Assembly (NCBI RefSeq): GCF_009914755.1
Contig: NC_060947.1
Length of the DNA stretch: 64,000 nucleotides
Strand: one strand, 5' to 3'
Source: the human T2T-CHM13v2.0 reference genome, Homo sapiens
This document shows, piece by piece, positions 16,039 through 31,901 of the stretch (the stretch's first letter is position 1; every line of letters starts with the position of its first letter). Made by a program: the position numbers and the translations under genes. Below the pieces are notes generated by a model. That model had not been told where the DNA came from, did no database searches, and saw only the letters and a list, made by a program, of their open reading frames with translations.

Positions 16039-17425
16039 GGTACTGGTACCAAAACAGAGATATAGACCAATGGAACAGAACAGAGTCCTCAGAAAGAACG
16101 CCACATATCTACAACTATCTGATCTTTGACAAACCTGAGAAAAACAAGCAATGGGGAAAGGATTCCCTATTTAATAAATGGTGCTGGGAAAACTGGCTAG
16201 CCATATGTAGAAAGCTGAAACTGGATCCCTTCCTTACACCTTATACAAAAATTAATTCAAGATGGATTAAAGACTTAAACGTTAGACCTAAAACCATAAG
16301 AACCCTAGAAGAAAACCTAGGCAATACCATTCAGGACATAGGCATGGACAAGGACTTCATGTCTAAAACACCGAAAGCAATGGCAACAAACGTCAAAATT
16401 GACAAATGGGATCTAATTCAACTAAAGAGCTTCTGCACAGCAAAAGAAACCACCATCAGAGTGAACAGGCAACCTACAAAATGGGAGAAAATTTTTGCAA
16501 CCTACTCATCTGACAAAGGGGTAATATCCAGAATCTACAATGAACTCAAACAAATTTACAAGAAAAAAACAACCCCATCAAAAAGTGGGCAAAGGATATG
16601 GACAGACACTTCTCAAAAGAAGACATTTATGCAGTCAAAAAACACATGAAAAAATGCTCATCATCACTGGCCATCAGAGAAATGCAAATCAAAACCACAA
16701 TGAGATACCATCTCACACCAGTTAGAATGGCAATCATTAAAAAGTCAGGAAACAACAGGTGCTGGAGAGGATGTGGAGAAATAGGAACACTTTTACACTG
16801 TTGGTGGGACTGTAAACTAGTTCAAACACTGTGGAAGACAGTGTGGCGATTCCTCAGGGATCTAGAACTAGAAATACCATTTGACCCAGCCATCCCATTA
16901 CTGGGTATATACCCAAAGGATTAGAAATCATGCTGCTATAAAGACACATGCACACGTATGTTTATTGCGGCACTATTCACAATAGCAAAGACCTGGAACC
17001 AACCCAAATGTCCAACAATGATAGACTGGATTAAGAAAATGTGGCACATATACACCATGGAATACTATGCAGCCAGAAAAAACGATGAGTTCATGTCCTT
17101 TGTAGGGACATGGATGAAGCTGGAAACCATCATTCTCAGCAAACTATTGCAAGGACAAAAAACCAAACACCACATGTTCTCACTCATAGGTGGGAACTGA
17201 ACAATGAGAACACATGGACACAGGAAGGGGAACATCACACACTGGGGACTGTTGTGGGGTGGGGGGAGGTGGGAGGGATAGCATTAGGAGATATACCTAA
17301 TGCTAAATGATGAGTTAATGGGTGCAGCACACCAACATGGCACATGTATACATATGTAACAAACCTGCACGTTGTGCACATGTACCCTAAAACTTATAGT
17401 ATAATAATAATAAGATTAAAAAAAA
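16039..17425 (+). mobile_element. Young 5'-truncated L1PA; ORF2 stop TAG at 16922-16924
   Basis: Near-consensus ORF2 3' end and 3'UTR; 5' TSD copy aagaaataagcatttt at 16023-16038. Confidence 0.97.
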
Positions 17426-18292
17426 GAATTCCTTTGAAACCCCAGGAGAAGTAATATTAGAAAATGAGAGTAATATTAGAAAAAGAAAGATTATTAGCCC
17501 TTTCCTTACATATCAGTGTATAGTTTCACTTGTTACAGCAAGTATGTTTTACTTCTAATTCAAAGGTCATCAAATAAGATAAAATGTTCTGCTGGCACTT
17601 TGCAAAAGAAGGGTATCCTGATGGTCAAAGTCATATGAAAAGATTCTCAGCTCTATGAGACATAAGGAAAATGCAAATTATAACCACAATGTGATATCAC
17701 TGTACATGCCAAAATGACTAAAATAAAAAAGAGAAAAAAGCCAGGCATGGTGGCTCATGCCTGTAATCCCAGCACTTTGGGAGGCCGAGGCGGGCGGATC
17801 ACCAGGTCAGGAGATCGAGACCATCCTGCCTAACACGGTGAAACTCTGTCTCTACCAAAAATACAAAAAATTAGCTGGACATGGTGGCACATGCCTGTAG
17901 TACCAGATACTCCGGTGGCTGAGGCAGGAGAATCACTTGAACCCAGGAGGTGGAGGTTGCAGTGAGCTGAGATCACACTGCACTCCAGTCTGGGCAACAG
18001 AGGAAGACTCCATCTCAACAAAAAAAAAAAAAAAAAAAAAAGAGAGAGAGAGAGAAATGATAACAATTTTGGTGACAACAAATGGAAACTACTGGATATG
18101 AAATAATTGGTATTCTTATAGGCTACTTGCTGGAGTATAAATTGATATAACCACTTTAGAAAACTATTTGGCAGTATCTATTAAAGCAGACAGATGCATA
18201 CACCAATACTCAGCAATTCTACTCCTAGATATGTACCTAACAAATATGTACACATATGAATGTTCAATAAATGTGTTTAAGAATAAAAAAAA
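17426..18292 (+). other. L1-mediated 3' transduced segment with its own AATAAA and polyA
   Basis: Second TSD copy is at 18293-18308, not after the L1 tail; AATAAA at 18266-18271, A-run from 18285. Confidence 0.92.
17739..18041 (+). mobile_element. Alu (AluS-like) inside the transduced segment, itself splitting an old L1M relic
   Basis: Dimeric Alu, long polyA then (AG)n; flanks read as diverged L1 ORF2 end (gaaatgcaaattataaccacaatg; accactttagaaaactatttggcagtatct). Confidence 0.93.
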
Positions 18293-18889
18293 AAGAAATA
18301 AGCATTTTAAGGCCTCAGTATTTTTTATAGATGGAAAGTAGAATTTTCCTTATATTTCCATGCTTTAAATTTTTTTTTCTCCAAGTTATTGGTAGAGAGT
18401 TTCCATACTTAAAAATATCCCATCCTAGAAGCAAATCATAAGGTCTGTATTCCACAGGCAGAACCCTGGCTTACAGAAATACCTGGGTGCTTGACAACAG
18501 GAGGTCATTGGAGGAGTTGGCAGCAGGGTGCAGGAATAGTTGGGATAATTTTCCTCAAGTTTGTGTTTCCCGGCTTTGTGCCGATGATCATGGAGTCAGA
18601 GAGGCAGCATGAGAAATGCTTCTCAGTCCAAGTAATTGAAACTAGGAAACCTGTGAGAAAACTGAGAGAAGACTGGAGCAAAATCCTCTAAAGGGCAGTG
18701 TGCTTTCCTTCACTGGAGGGCTTGCAAACTGCCATTTGACATGCAGGTGGCAGCATTTTTTTTCCTTTTGTCTAATGAAGCCAATCCCGTAGTCACAGAT
18801 TGGTCATGTTTTCCCCAGGATCCACTAGGGGATTTTAATATGGTGGGGCTACAGAAAGATGTCCATTGGTTTCTAACAACACCCACAGA

Positions 18890-19360
18890 AAATTTCAGAA
18901 ACCCTCTCTCGGTTCACAAGGCCCTGTATGATCTCCTTTCACTCTACCTTACATATTGCTACTCTCCTCTAGCTCACTGTATATCCTCCTTGTTCCCTGA
19001 AACATGTACTTCCCACATCCCTAGCTCAGGGGTGCTTGCGTTAGCTGTTCCCTCCACCTGGAAAGGTCCCAACACCCTCCCTCCTTGAAAGCCATAGAGT
19101 TTGCTCATCTCCCTTATTTGTGGCTTAGGAAACTCTTTCTGTACTTAAAGAAACACCTTCCACTTCTGTCTCCCTATGCCTTGTGTTGTTTCATTTATTT
19201 TTTTACCACATAGTTACCACCTCCCAACATGATGTCAAATATTGCAATCTGTTTCTCTGTTTACTGTTTTTATTCTGTCACCCATAACAGAAGCCCACAA
19301 GGGTTCTGCACATGTTTTGTGACACAGCAGACGCTCAATAATGCATGTTGAATGAAAGCA
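18890..19360 (+). mobile_element. L2 fragment
   Basis: caaggccctgtatgatct; ctcaggg...gctgttccctccacctggaa; gacacagcagacgctcaataatgcatgttgaatgaa terminus. Confidence 0.7.
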
Positions 19361-29629: not shown

Positions 29630-29900
29630 CATTGGAGTGAAAGCAGTGTCACAGTAGTTACATGTCTGGGCTCTGGAGGGAGACTGCCTGGATAAAAACC
29701 CTGCTTCCACTACTTGTGTGCTGAGTGACTGTCAGCATGTCACGGAACCTCTCTATCACTGTCTTAATCCATAAAATTGAATATAATACCTATACCTAAA
29801 CTAATAGGTACCATGTATTGTTGATTAAAAGGAATAACGTGATTAAAACATTTGAGAAAGTGTTTGTATCATGGTAAATGTTCAGTAACATTAGCTATCT
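29630..29900 (+). mobile_element. MIR
   Basis: ggctctggag...gactgcctgg...aacctctct...cataaaattgaatataatacctat core. Confidence 0.7.
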
Positions 29901-30589
29901 GTGAGTCACTGATCAGCATGTCTCAAATCTGTCCTATTTCAGATAAGTAAGGATTACAGCAGCATCTCCATGTCTCTTAGGATTTATATGACAAGTGGAC
30001 ACTAGTTTATTTGGTCCTTACACTTGTGATCTGAAGCCACGATTATCTCATAGGTAAGCTTCTTATATGAACATGTCCAAATGTTGAAGCCTAGGAGAAA
30101 TCTCCAGTATGTAAAAGGTATCCAATGGGTGTTCATGGTGGACAGGAGTACAAGATTAAGATCCCCAGTAAATACATTTGTCCTCTAAGTTTGAACTATA
30201 AAACCAAGGAGGATATTTGCAAAGAGTCTTTAAAACTTCAGAATAAAAAAACTTATCATAGTTACAGAAAAAAAAATCAGTCAGAAGATAAATATTTGGC
30301 CAGCCATGGAAACAATCATAGTCAATGCCCATTCCATTCCCATTTGCAAGGCTTTAACTATTACTAAATATTGGACTATTTTATACTGATGCCATTAAAC
30401 AGGTAAATGGCAGGCAAATTTCATGCTGGCTTTCCCTCATTCTTGAAATCTGTGAACTCACCATTGGACTGTTTTTACTCTGCATTATCTTGCTGGACCC
30501 AGTAATCAGCCACTCATTAAGCACTTGCATAATCACACTCCCCACCTCACACAATATGCCTCCTTTCTCGAAGAACTTTCCTTGACTGA

Positions 30590-31901
30590 GAAGTGTCTGT
30601 TCATGTCCTTCACCCACTTTTGGATGGGGTTGTTTGTTTTTTTCTTGTAAATTTGTTTGAGTTCATTGTAGATTCTGGATATTACCCCTTTGTCAGATGA
30701 GTAGGCTGCAAAAATTTTCTCCCATTTTGTAGGTTGCCTGTTCACTCTGATGGTAGTTTCTTTTGCTGTGCAGAAGCTCTTTAGTTTAATTAGATCCCAT
30801 TTGTCAATTTTGTCTTTTGTTGCCATTGCTTTTGGTGTTTTAGACATGAAGTCCTTGCGCATGCCTATGTCCTGAATGGTAATGCCTAGGTTTTCTTCTA
30901 GGGTTTTTATGGTTTTAGGTATAACGTTTAAGTCTTTAATCAATCTTGAACTGATTTTTGTATAAGGTGTAAGGAAGGGATCCAGTTTCAGCTTTCTACG
31001 TATGGCTAGCCAGTTTTCCCAGCACCATTTATTAAATAGGGAATCCTTTCCCCATTGCTTGTTTTTCAGAAGACATTTATGCAGCCAAAAAACACATGAA
31101 AAAATGCTCACCATCACTGGCCATCAGAGAAATGCAAATCAAAACCACAATGAGATACCATCTCACACCAGTTAGAATGGCAATCATTAAAAAGTCAGGA
31201 AACAACAGGTGCTGGAGAGGATGTGGAGAAACAGGAACACTTTTACACTGTTGGTGGGACTGTAAACTAGTTCAACCACTGTGGAAGACAGTGTGGCGAT
31301 TCCTCAGGGATCTAGAACTAGAAATACCATTTGACCCAGCCATCCCATTACTGGGTATATACCCAAAGGATTAGAAATCATGCTGCTATAAAGACACATG
31401 CACACGTATGTTTATTGCGGCACTATTCACAATAGCAAAGACCTGGAACCAACCCAAATGTCCAACAATGATAGACTGGATTAAGAAAATGTGGCACATA
31501 TACACCATGGAATACTATGCAGCCAGAAAAAACGATGAGTTCATGTCCTTTGTAGGGACATGGATGAAGCTGGAAACCATCATTCTCAGCAAACTATCGC
31601 AAGGACAAAAAACCAAACACCACATGTTCTCACTCATAGGTGGGAACTGAACAATGAGAACACATGGACACAGGAAGGGGAACATCACACACTGGGGACT
31701 GTTGTGGGGTGGGGGGAGGTGGGAGGGATAGCATTAGGAGATATACCTAATGCTAAATGACGAGTTAATGGGTGCAGCACACCAACATGGCACATGTATA
31801 CATATGTAACAAACCTGCACGTTGTGCACATGTACCCTAAAACTTAAAGTATAATAATAAAAAAATAAATAAATAAATAAATAAATAAAAAGAAAAAAAA
31901 A
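30590..31901 (+). mobile_element. Young L1PA with twin-priming inversion (inverted 30590-31067, sense 31068-31901); ORF2 stop TAG at 31372-31374
   Basis: TSD aagaactttccttgactga at 30571-30589 and 31902-31920. Confidence 0.97.

What the first reader, a model, noticed from the sequence alone, without database searches (positions are those of the whole stretch)
16621..31860. Two independent L1 insertions share the same ORF2 nonsense codon and a near-identical 3' end
Seen: both read GIYPKD then TAG (16922-16924 and 31372-31374), where the other four young copies have Tyr. This removes the last 92 aa, downstream of the CCHC motif. They share further private variants (acctggaacc, gccagaaaaaacg, gaggtgggag, gggaactga). 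By manual count there are 7 differences over 16621-17410 vs 31071-31860 (790 bp), but about 21 over the ~480 bp upstream (16140-16615 vs inverted 30590-31067). TSDs and structures differ. Established: L1 shows cis preference and the ORF2p C-terminus is considered necessary for mobility. Inference: either a stop-carrying L1 lineage propagated (trans-mobilised, read-through or tolerated truncation), or gene conversion homogenised the co-oriented segments 14.45 kb apart.
Basis: partly seen in the sequence, partly recalled or inferred. Interest (0 to 1): 0.8.

Follow-up and report, generated by a model that had tools for sequence, protein, structure and literature searches.

The report
Gene conversion copied an L1 stop codon
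Two separately inserted L1 fragments 14 kb apart on the X chromosome share a stop codon because one fragment's tail was pasted over the other after insertion, which is an ordinary kind of repeat-to-repeat copying and not a sign of a mobile stop-carrying L1 family.

Summary
Both L1 3' ends read GIYPKD-TAG (16922-16924, 31372-31374). They differ at 7 of 790 bases downstream of copy 2's inversion junction, against 20 substitutions plus one indel in the 476 bases upstream.

Best explanation: non-allelic gene conversion, copy 1 to copy 2.
- The loci share only the L1 itself.
- All 7 shared rare states lie in 16829-17270, and 6 of 7 differences lie outside 16827-17310.
- Copy 2's inverted arm is a younger L1 type, but from 16921 on its direct arm is the older type of copy 1.
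- The other 53 genomic carriers of the TAG 25-mer are 2.9-12.2% away.
- The full haplotype occurs only in these two copies.

So no mobile stop-bearing subfamily is needed. One residue remains: a TAG+17076G+17083C block also sits in one copy each on chr7 and chr8.

Unexpected side result: genome-wide, TAG-bearing L1 copies are 46-155 times more clustered in space than chance (20 independent copies in chr2:12.5-15.5 Mb). Short-tract, possibly GC-biased ectopic conversion is my best guess for this, and it is not proven.

The parts
16035..17410 (+). Copy 1 (W1): 5'-truncated L1 3' end (ORF2 C-terminus plus 3'UTR), followed by a short A-rich tail to about 17424. It is the likely donor.
   Evidence: ORF2p identity. 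It is a coherent 'late old-type' element along its whole length. No exact target-site duplication of 7 bp or more was found.
16760..16813 (+). CX3CX7HX4C cysteine-rich motif of ORF2 in copy 1 (ORF2p residues 1130-1147).
   Evidence: Translations; alignment to 8sxt_A.
16922..16924 (+). Premature TAG in copy 1, at the codon of ORF2p Tyr1184.
16827..17410 (+). Copy 1 side of the homogenised tract. The core 16827-17310 has 1 difference in 484 bp. The tract probably runs to the end of homology.
17198..17200 (+). Natural ORF2 stop TGA in copy 1.
30571..30589 (.). Left target-site duplication of copy 2 (AAGAACTTTCCTTGACTGA).
30590..31067 (-). Copy 2 (W2) inverted 5' arm, equivalent to copy 1 positions 16139-16615. 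It is young-type L1 and 4.4% from copy 1. It is unconverted.
31068..31860 (+). Copy 2 direct 3' arm, equivalent to copy 1 positions 16618-17410.
31277..31860 (+). Copy 2 side of the homogenised tract (recipient). It is old-type sequence attached to a young-type 5' part.
31372..31374 (+). Premature TAG in copy 2.
31861..31901 (+). Copy 2 tail, A-rich with (AAAT)n. It is unlike the tail of copy 1.
31902..31920 (.). Right target-site duplication of copy 2.

Best explanation
Two L1 fragments inserted independently at different times. Copy 1 is an older-type, 5'-truncated element. Copy 2 is a younger-type element with a twin-priming style 5' inversion.

Later, a non-allelic (ectopic) gene conversion between the two co-oriented 3' ends, 14.45 kb apart, overwrote copy 2 with copy 1's sequence. 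The overwritten stretch runs from about 31277 to the end of homology, at least 545 bp and probably 584 bp. This transferred the TAG together with copy 1's other rare states.

The tract could not extend further 5' than copy 2's inversion junction. It actually stops about 200 bp short of it.

The stop codon has no function in either fragment, because both are dead 5'-truncated copies.

Shown: independent insertion, the tract, the mosaic type of copy 2, and the uniqueness of the haplotype.
Inferred: the mechanism (heteroduplex repair after strand invasion), the direction, and the date.
For: 1. Independent insertions. The only strong homology between 12000-21000 and 26500-35500 is the L1 itself. 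Copy 2 has its own 19-bp target-site duplication, its own tail and an inversion.

2. Divergence step. 7 of 790 vs 20 of 476 substitutions, Fisher p=1.5e-4. The run of at least 484 bp with at most 1 difference has permutation P=7e-4.

3. The core is not a slow region. Among reference pairs it averages 7.1% divergence, against 5.8% upstream. Only 1 of 2849 reference pairs has 6 or fewer core differences.

4. Position of the markers. All 6 shared rare states plus TAG lie in 16829-17270. Six of the 7 differences lie outside 16827-17310. The one inside, 17148, is a CpG transition.

5. Upstream, nearly all differences are private to one copy: about 9 in copy 1 and about 11 in copy 2, at reference frequencies mostly 0-1 of 53-71. 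So both copies are old, about 2% private divergence each. The 3' similarity is therefore secondary.

6. Direction. Copy 2's inverted arm carries the young-type state at 6 of 6 arm markers, plus 16324T, 16393A and 16661C. Its direct arm is old-type at 11 of 14 markers from 16921 on, exactly like copy 1. Copy 1 is of one stage throughout.

7. Uniqueness. The other 53 carriers of the TAG 25-mer are 2.92-12.21% from copy 1. The 3 other genomic carriers of the 17076G+17083C 28-mer lack the remaining shared states.

8. The same kind of event is seen again nearby. L047 (chrX 49,568,030, minus strand) vs L050 (chrX 50,011,260, plus strand) show 47 mismatches in the first 1086 bp, then 1 in the next 884 bp, with unrelated tails and flanks.
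Against: - No outgroup or population data were available, so the pre-conversion state of copy 2 was never seen.
- The direction rests on about 14-20 subfamily markers, defined from small reference sets: 83 old-type and 20-26 young-type copies, chosen by one k-mer.
- At least one reference copy, L072, mixes marker types.
- The flanks of the core (16621-16826 with 4 of 206 differences; 17311-17410 with 2 of 100) are less diverged than the 4.4% upstream. The tract limits are therefore soft, and more than one event is possible.
- All 3 differences inside 16827-17410 are derived in copy 1 and none in copy 2. That is unbalanced but not significant.
- The TAG+17076G+17083C block also occurs in young-type copies on chr7 and chr8. 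Those copies are only 2 of 197 and 4 of 197 different from copy 2 in 16922-17118. A simple 'private mutation of copy 1' history does not explain this.
Confidence: 0.8

Rival explanations
1. A stop-carrying L1 source lineage was mobilised (in trans, by read-through, or because the truncated ORF2p still works). It gave rise to both copies, which share the haplotype by descent from the RNA.
For: TAG with 17076G and 17083C occurs in 4 genomic copies on 3 chromosomes: the two here, chr7:138.43 Mb and chr8:74.83 Mb. These are 4 of the 5 carriers of the G+C 28-mer. By contrast, 39 copies have 17076G with TAT. That association is unlikely by independent mutation.
Against: - In twin priming, both arms of copy 2 come from one RNA (recalled). 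Yet its inverted arm is 4.4% from copy 1 and of a younger type, while its direct arm is 0.2-0.9% from copy 1 and of the older type.
- Private divergence of about 2% per copy upstream, against 0.25-0.63% in the 3' arm, cannot come from one insertion date.
- The chr7 and chr8 copies lack 16829C, 16993C, 17197C and 17270T, and are 4.6-5.2% from copy 1.
- The 110 TAG copies sit on at least 4 subfamily stages and are clustered in space, not dispersed as retrotransposition would leave them.
Confidence: 0.07
2. Gene conversion happened, but with another history. Either copy 2 was the donor, or a third neighbouring GGATTAG copy converted both, or two or more partial events in opposite directions produced the mosaic.
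For: - The window lies in a group of 7 GGATTAG copies within chrX 49.57-51.42 Mb.
- The TAG+G+C block is otherwise found on young-type copies like copy 2's 5' arm.
- The flanks of the core are only partly diverged.
Against: - The whole 3' arm of both copies is of copy 1's stage.
- No third chrX copy carries the 17076G+17083C 28-mer.
- The chrX neighbours L047-L051 share no rare state with the pair apart from TAG.
- One event from copy 1 to copy 2 explains every marker in the pair.
Confidence: 0.1
3. Assembly collapse or mis-polishing made two different repeats look alike, or the pair is part of a segmental duplication.
For: None from the sequence.
Against: The copies keep 7 differences, distinct tails and unrelated flanks. 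A 14-kb spacing is well within long-read length. No homology exists beyond the L1. Reads were not available to me.
Confidence: 0.02

Closest known systems
Non-allelic (interlocus, ectopic) gene conversion between dispersed repeats, as described for neighbouring Alu elements and for segmental duplications
   Same: Two paralogous copies of independent origin carry a bounded tract of near identity inside otherwise diverged sequence, at short distance and on a sex chromosome. [quoted passage not shown] For PMC10172114 (conversion within segmental duplications) I saw only the search listing and the start of the abstract.
   Different: Here the partners are L1 3' ends, not Alus or duplicated genes. 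One partner is bounded by its own 5' inversion. The transferred tract carries a nonsense codon, which is what made it look like a subfamily.
L1 5' inversion by twin priming (recalled: Ostertag and Kazazian 2001; not read here)
   Same: Copy 2 has an inverted 5' arm abutting a direct 3' arm, with 2 bases missing at the junction, a tail and a perfect 19-bp target-site duplication.
   Different: The two arms now differ in subfamily type and in distance to copy 1. Twin priming from one RNA does not produce that. It is the trace of the later conversion.
Trans-mobilisation of defective L1s versus cis preference (recalled: Wei et al. 2001; not read here)
   Same: This would be the route by which a stop-bearing L1 RNA could spread. 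The stop removes ORF2p residues 1184-1275, half of the 180-residue C-terminal segment reported to bind RNA (PMC3821027, start of abstract in the listing).
   Different: The pair does not need it. Only the small TAG+G+C block on chr7 and chr8 could reflect it, and that is untested.
Non-allelic gene conversion spreading point changes among dispersed transposon copies along a chromosome (Ellison and Bachtrog 2015, eLife, Drosophila miranda; seen only as a reference in PMC5237266; content recalled)
   Same: It resembles the side observation: one rare base change is present in many independent copies of one repeat family within a chromosomal neighbourhood.
   Different: That case concerns selected regulatory sites on a neo-X. 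Here the change is a nonsense codon in dead human L1 fragments with no visible selection. The spread is local (0.1-3 Mb) and is seen for weak-to-strong changes.

Membership tests
LINE-1 (L1PA-type) 3' end | Encodes the C-terminus of ORF2p with the CX3CX7HX4C motif | tested here: met
   210 aa, read through with X at the stop, align to human ORF2p 8sxt_A residues 1066-1275 at E=7.6e-139. Pfam gave no family for the 3 fragments scanned.
LINE-1 (L1PA-type) 3' end | Insertion hallmarks: A-rich tail, target-site duplication, 5' truncation or inversion | tested here: met
   Copy 2 has a 19-bp duplication, a tail and an inversion. Copy 1 has a tail and truncation but no exact duplication of 7 bp or more. 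No RepeatMasker or Dfam run was possible. My subfamily names are recalled only: old type about L1PA4-6, young type about L1PA3-2.
Non-allelic gene conversion | Partners are paralogues of independent origin (unrelated flanks) | tested here: met
   BLAST of the two 9-kb loci finds only the L1 at high identity.
Non-allelic gene conversion | A bounded tract of significantly raised identity within normally diverged sequence | tested here: met
   1 of 484 differences in the core vs 20 of 476 upstream. Fisher p=1.5e-4 and permutation P=7e-4. The core is not a slow region.
Non-allelic gene conversion | Derived states private to one copy appear in the other, only inside the tract | tested here: met
   Six rare states plus TAG are shared in 16829-17270. 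The combination is absent from 87 reference copies and from the other 3 carriers of the 28-mer.
Non-allelic gene conversion | Phylogenetic incongruence along the recipient | tested here: met
   Copy 2 is young-type at 6 of 6 markers in its 5' arm and old-type at 11 of 14 markers from 16921 on. The reference sets are small.
Non-allelic gene conversion | The pre-conversion state is seen in an outgroup or in other haplotypes | not testable with these tools
   No ape or other human assemblies were on hand.
Mobile stop-bearing L1 subfamily | Many dispersed copies share the stop together with linked diagnostic states | tested here: not met
   The full haplotype is found in 2 copies only. TAG+17076G+17083C is found in 4 copies. 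The 110 TAG copies lie on at least 4 stages and are spatially clustered.
Mobile stop-bearing L1 subfamily | A full-length source element carries the haplotype | not tested
Segmental duplication | Homology continues into the flanks | tested here: not met
   As a contrast, L004, L006 and L007 on chr2:96.5-97.9 Mb have flanks 97-100% alike.

The most novel reading that the evidence does not exclude
Ectopic gene conversion among dispersed, independently inserted L1 3' ends may be frequent, distance-dependent and GC-biased. If so, single weak-to-strong changes such as TAT to TAG spread through whole chromosomal neighbourhoods of 0.1-3 Mb. The pair in this window would be one long-tract, recent example. 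The 20 TAG copies of at least 4 subfamily stages in chr2:12.5-15.5 Mb would be the result of many short-tract events.

In favour:
- The clustering is 46-155 times chance for TAG, 12 times for T>G at 17076 and 9 times for A>C at 16925. It is about 1.5-2.3 times in the 4 larger control sets.
- GGATTAG and GGACTAG clusters do not mix: 3 cross pairs vs 1.9 expected. The base 3 bp away therefore travels with TAG.
- The chr2 copies are relatively more alike within 200 bp of TAG than 20 random controls: near/far mismatch ratio 0.47 vs 0.68, bootstrap P about 0.003.

Against:
- The GGATTAG clusters show no such local excess: 0.77 within clusters vs 0.79 between.
- The weak-to-weak control sets are small (16, 18 and 9 copies), and one of them has 2 close pairs.
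- Only 3 sites were tested.
Probability: 0.4. Interest if true: 0.75.

Novelty: new member of a known kind. Interest (0 to 1): 0.5.

Why it matters
For the finding itself, the value is a caution. A shared nonsense codon plus shared 'private' variants in two repeats looks like a defective L1 subfamily that escaped cis preference. Here it is post-insertion copying. Subfamily calls, ages and source-element inference based on L1 3' ends can be misled in the same way.

The side result could matter more. If single weak-to-strong changes really spread among independent L1 copies over megabases, three things would follow:
- L1 remnants do not evolve independently of one another.
- Substitution-rate and dating studies that treat them as neutral independent replicates would be biased.
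- L1-dense regions would offer a natural readout of ectopic repair and of its GC bias.

Tried and rejected
- **Recurrent mutation as the whole story.** Rejected for the pair, because 7 linked rare states are shared.
- **Segmental duplication.** Rejected by unrelated flanks.
- **A slow-evolving core region.** Rejected: the core is more diverse than the upstream part in reference pairs.
- **A regional T>G mutation process for the clusters.** Unlikely. GGATTAG and GGACTAG clusters do not overlap, and two old-type copies in the chr2 cluster (L087, L101) carry GGAC together with TAG.
- **One local burst from a single TAG source on chr2.** Rejected, because the 20 copies span at least 4 stages.
- **Markers 16973T, 17210T, 17233T as a TAG lineage.** Rejected. 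They also occur in random GGACTAT controls.
- **Markers 16324T and 16661C as TAG-lineage markers.** Rejected. TAT copies Wa, Wd and L071 have them.
- **A link of the chr2 cluster to maternal mutation-cluster regions.** The passages of preprint 10.1101/140111 name a chromosome 2 region, but the coordinates in the text are garbled and do not point to 12.5-15.5 Mb. No link was established.
- **Pfam.** No family for the ORF2 fragments.
- **In print.** My searches turned up no paper describing megabase-scale clustering of identical rare substitutions among human L1 copies, and no L1-specific neighbour-conversion survey. These were keyword searches of an open-access library only.

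
Full report
**What is there**

The window (chrX of T2T-CHM13 according to the hub note) is very rich in L1. Six 3' ends of one L1 type lie in 64 kb.

Copy 1 (16035-17410, plus strand) is a 5'-truncated fragment. It covers the last ~380 codons of ORF2 and the 3'UTR.

Copy 2 has these parts:
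- an inverted 5' arm (30590-31067), equal to copy 1 positions 16139-16615;
- a direct 3' arm (31068-31860), equal to 16618-17410;
- an A-rich tail with (AAAT)n;
- a perfect 19-bp target-site duplication.

Both copies read GIYPKD then TAG. The four other copies in the window read GGACTAT at that place. With X at the stop, the 210-residue translation aligns end to end with solved human ORF2p, residues 1066-1275, at E=7.6e-139. The stop replaces Tyr1184, 36 residues after the cysteine-rich motif (1130-1147), and 92 residues are lost. Pfam had no model for these fragments.

The direct arms differ at 7 of 790 positions. The upstream parts differ by 20 substitutions and one 4-bp indel in 476.

The boundary used for this contrast is set by copy 2's structure, not by the data, so a Fisher test is fair: p=1.5e-4. 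With the 27 substitutions placed at random on 1266 sites, a run of 484 bp or more holding at most one difference has P=7e-4.

The core is not a slow region. Among reference pairs it is more diverse (mean 7.1%) than the upstream part (5.8%). Only 1 of 2849 reference pairs (L060/L061, chr1 16.03/16.21 Mb) has 6 or fewer core differences.

**Is the haplotype a subfamily?**

The own genome could be searched.
- The TAG 25-mer has 55 exact hits, the two here included.
- The same 25-mer with TAT has 6365 hits.
- GGACTAG has 55 hits.
- GGACTAT has 6482 hits (6537 for GGACTAK).

TAG is therefore about 0.85% on either background.

I fetched the other 53 GGATTAG copies. In the 790 bp they are 2.92-12.21% from copy 1, whereas copy 2 is 0.89% away. 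They lie on several subfamily backgrounds.

I compared the pair with 87 reference copies: 53 TAG, 30 TAT from chr1 and 4 from the window. The pair shares six rare states: 16829C, 16993C, 17076G, 17083C, 17197C and 17270T, each at 0-5 of 84-87. TAG is a seventh. All lie within 16829-17270.

The seven differences are at 16635, 16661, 16782, 16826, 17148, 17311 and 17397. Six of them fall outside 16827-17310. The one inside is a CpG transition.

Upstream, the two copies share only 2 rare states. Copy 1 carries about 9 private states and copy 2 about 11, which is about 2% each. Both are therefore old insertions, and the 3' likeness arose later.

A 28-mer holding 17076G and 17083C has 5 hits in 3.1 Gb. 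The three outside the window (L084 chr7, L085 chr5, L086 chr8) all lack 16829C, 16993C, 17197C and 17270T, and are 4.6-5.6% from copy 1.

**Direction**

I defined stage markers in two ways.
- For the upstream part, I used states shared by the six GGAC-type copies then in hand: the four window copies Wa-Wd plus L084 and L086.
- For the 3' arm, I contrasted 81 GGAT-type copies (the 83 fetched, without L070 and L071) with 20 GGACTAT copies: 16 picked at even steps from the chr1 listing plus the 4 window copies.

By recall, the GGAC-type states at 17241, 17335 and 17361 are those of the youngest human L1s, so GGAC-type is the younger.

Copy 2's inverted arm has the young state at all 6 arm markers: 16139, 16253, 16280, 16479, 16501 and 16597. 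It also has 16324T and 16393A, and 16661C lies just inside the direct arm. From 16921 on, however, it has the old state at 11 of 14 markers, identical to copy 1.

Copy 1 is of one 'late old' stage throughout. It has 4 of 6 young states upstream, and 16641A, 16732A and 17248A in the 3' arm.

In twin priming both arms come from one RNA (recalled). Copy 2 is therefore a mosaic, and copy 1 is the likely donor.

The tract runs from between 16826 and 16829 to at least 17371, probably to the end of homology. It could not have passed the inversion junction.

Three later differences (17148, 17311, 17397) are all derived in copy 1. With a recalled X-linked rate, this gives a rough age of 1-10 Myr. That figure is an inference.

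**A loose end**

L084 and L086 are young-type copies on chr7 and chr8, and they also carry TAG with 17076G and 17083C. Of the genomic copies with 17076G, 4 have TAG and 39 have TAT.

In 16922-17118 they differ from copy 2 at only 4 and 2 of 197 positions, below the first percentile (2.54%) of reference pairs. They are about 4.5% away on either side of that stretch.

L085 is old-type with TAT and shares the right half of the block.

So a ~200-bp cassette sits on three backgrounds on three chromosomes. Either a stop-bearing RNA was occasionally mobilised and recombined, or conversion between chromosomes occurs. I could not decide between these.

**Side result**

The places of the TAG hits are far from random.

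| Variant set | n | Pairs within 1 Mb, observed / expected |
|---|---|---|
| GGATTAG | 55 | 44 / 0.95 |
| GGACTAG | 55 | 148 / 0.95 (20 copies lie in chr2:12.5-15.5 Mb) |
| GGATTAT and GGACTAT, first 100 places each | 100 each | about 1.5 times expectation |
| Cross pairs, GGATTAG with GGACTAG | – | 3 / 1.9 |
| T>G at 17076 | 43 | 7 / 0.58 |
| A>C at 16925 | 27 | 2 / 0.23 (6 / 0.31 within 1.5 Mb) |
| T>A at 16924 (TAA) | 16 | 2 close pairs, on X 61.3 Mb and Y 21.3 Mb, not checked for duplication |
| T>A at 17076 | 18 | 0 |
| A>T at 16925 | 9 | 0 |
| G>T at 17270, first 100 of 115 | 100 | about 8 / 3.4 (my count from the listing) |
| G>C/T at 16932, first 100 of 282 | 100 | 18 / 10.9 |

Only the chr2:96.5-97.9 Mb trio has homologous flanks.

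I fetched all 20 chr2p copies.
- For the 8 fetched with flanks, the flanks are unrelated.
- The 20 are a median 3.8% apart.
- They span at least 4 stages, including two old-type copies that carry GGAC with TAG.
- Two rare states, 17046C and 17190A, occur in 4 of 19 cluster copies each and in 0 of 17-18 controls. 17046C crosses stages.
- The cluster copies are relatively more alike within 200 bp of TAG than 20 random GGACTAT controls. The near/far mismatch ratio is 0.47 (bootstrap interval 0.39-0.56) against 0.68 (0.55-0.83), P about 0.003.

Against this reading, the GGATTAG clusters show no such local excess: 0.77 within clusters against 0.79 between. The weak-to-weak control sets are also small.

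A second long-tract pair lies near the window. L047 and L050 are 443 kb apart in opposite orientation. They show 47 mismatches in the first 1086 bp and then 1 in the next 884 bp, with unrelated tails.

My best guess for the clusters is short-tract, GC-biased ectopic conversion among neighbouring L1s. This is a hypothesis, not a result.

**Comparison with what is known**

Conversion between neighbouring dispersed repeats is described for Alu. It is elevated within 10 kb and on the sex chromosomes (passages of PMC6598467). It is also described within segmental duplications (PMC10172114; search listing and start of abstract only).

The pair here is a new, clean L1 example of that known process.

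Three keyword searches of the open-access library found no report of megabase-scale clustering of identical rare substitutions among human L1 copies.

**Verdict**

The cause is ordinary non-allelic gene conversion, copy 1 to copy 2, with confidence 0.8. A mobile stop-bearing subfamily is not needed.

The finding as given deserves modest interest. The clustering seen in passing deserves a proper genome-wide test.

Noticed in passing
Own genome: chr2:12,521,143-15,476,552 (L087-L106). Also chr4:56.25-56.79 Mb, chr7:123.45-124.40 and 137.40-138.43 Mb, chr10:54.05-54.88 Mb, chrX:9.89-10.52 and 49.57-51.42 Mb.: L1 copies carrying the TAT>TAG change are 46-155 times more clustered within 1 Mb than chance, while TAT copies are 1.5 times. 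The 20 chr2 copies span at least 4 subfamily stages; for the 8 fetched with flanks, the flanks are unrelated. GGATTAG and GGACTAG clusters do not mix. T>G at 17076 and A>C at 16925 are also clustered. The T>A and A>T sets at the same sites are few and, apart from two sex-chromosome pairs, dispersed.
   Followed up: partly
L047 (chrX:49,568,030, minus strand) and L050 (chrX:50,011,260, plus strand): This is a second conversion-like pair. It shows 47 mismatches in the first 1086 aligned bp (4.3%), then 1 in the next 884 bp, with different tails and 3' flanks. The copies are 443 kb apart in opposite orientation. L049 is about 2% from both.
   Followed up: partly
L084 (chr7:138,428,150-138,429,600), L086 (chr8:74,825,640-74,827,090), L085 (chr5:110,723,310-110,724,760): A ~200-bp block with TAG, 17076G and 17083C sits on young-type copies on chr7 and chr8. 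These are only 4 and 2 of 197 different from the window copies inside the block, and about 4.5% outside it. An old-type chr5 copy has 17076G and 17083C with TAT. The origin is unresolved: rare mobilisation of a stop-bearing RNA, or conversion between chromosomes.
   Followed up: partly
L004, L006, L007 (chr2:96.53, 97.80, 97.92 Mb): These are true segmental-duplication copies of one TAG-bearing L1. The flanks are 97-100% alike, and L006 and L007 are identical over the stretch compared.
   Followed up: yes
L060 and L061 (chr1:16,033,427 and 16,205,079): This is the only other reference pair with a near-identical core (1 difference in 484 bp). I did not check whether it is a duplication or a conversion.
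   Followed up: no
window 16000-16045 and 17395-17470: Copy 1 has no exact target-site duplication of 7 bp or more. Only AAGAAAT against AAGAATT is visible.
   Followed up: partly
window 16566: Copy 1 lacks 4 bases that 53-61 of 70 reference copies have. Its ORF2 frame is therefore already broken upstream of the TAG.
   Followed up: yes
window 7200, 16912, 31362, 52070, 56189, 63082: Six L1 3' ends of this type lie in 64 kb, about 20 times the genome-wide density of the two 25-mers together. L1 density is therefore very uneven, and any clustering test needs a local null.
   Followed up: partly
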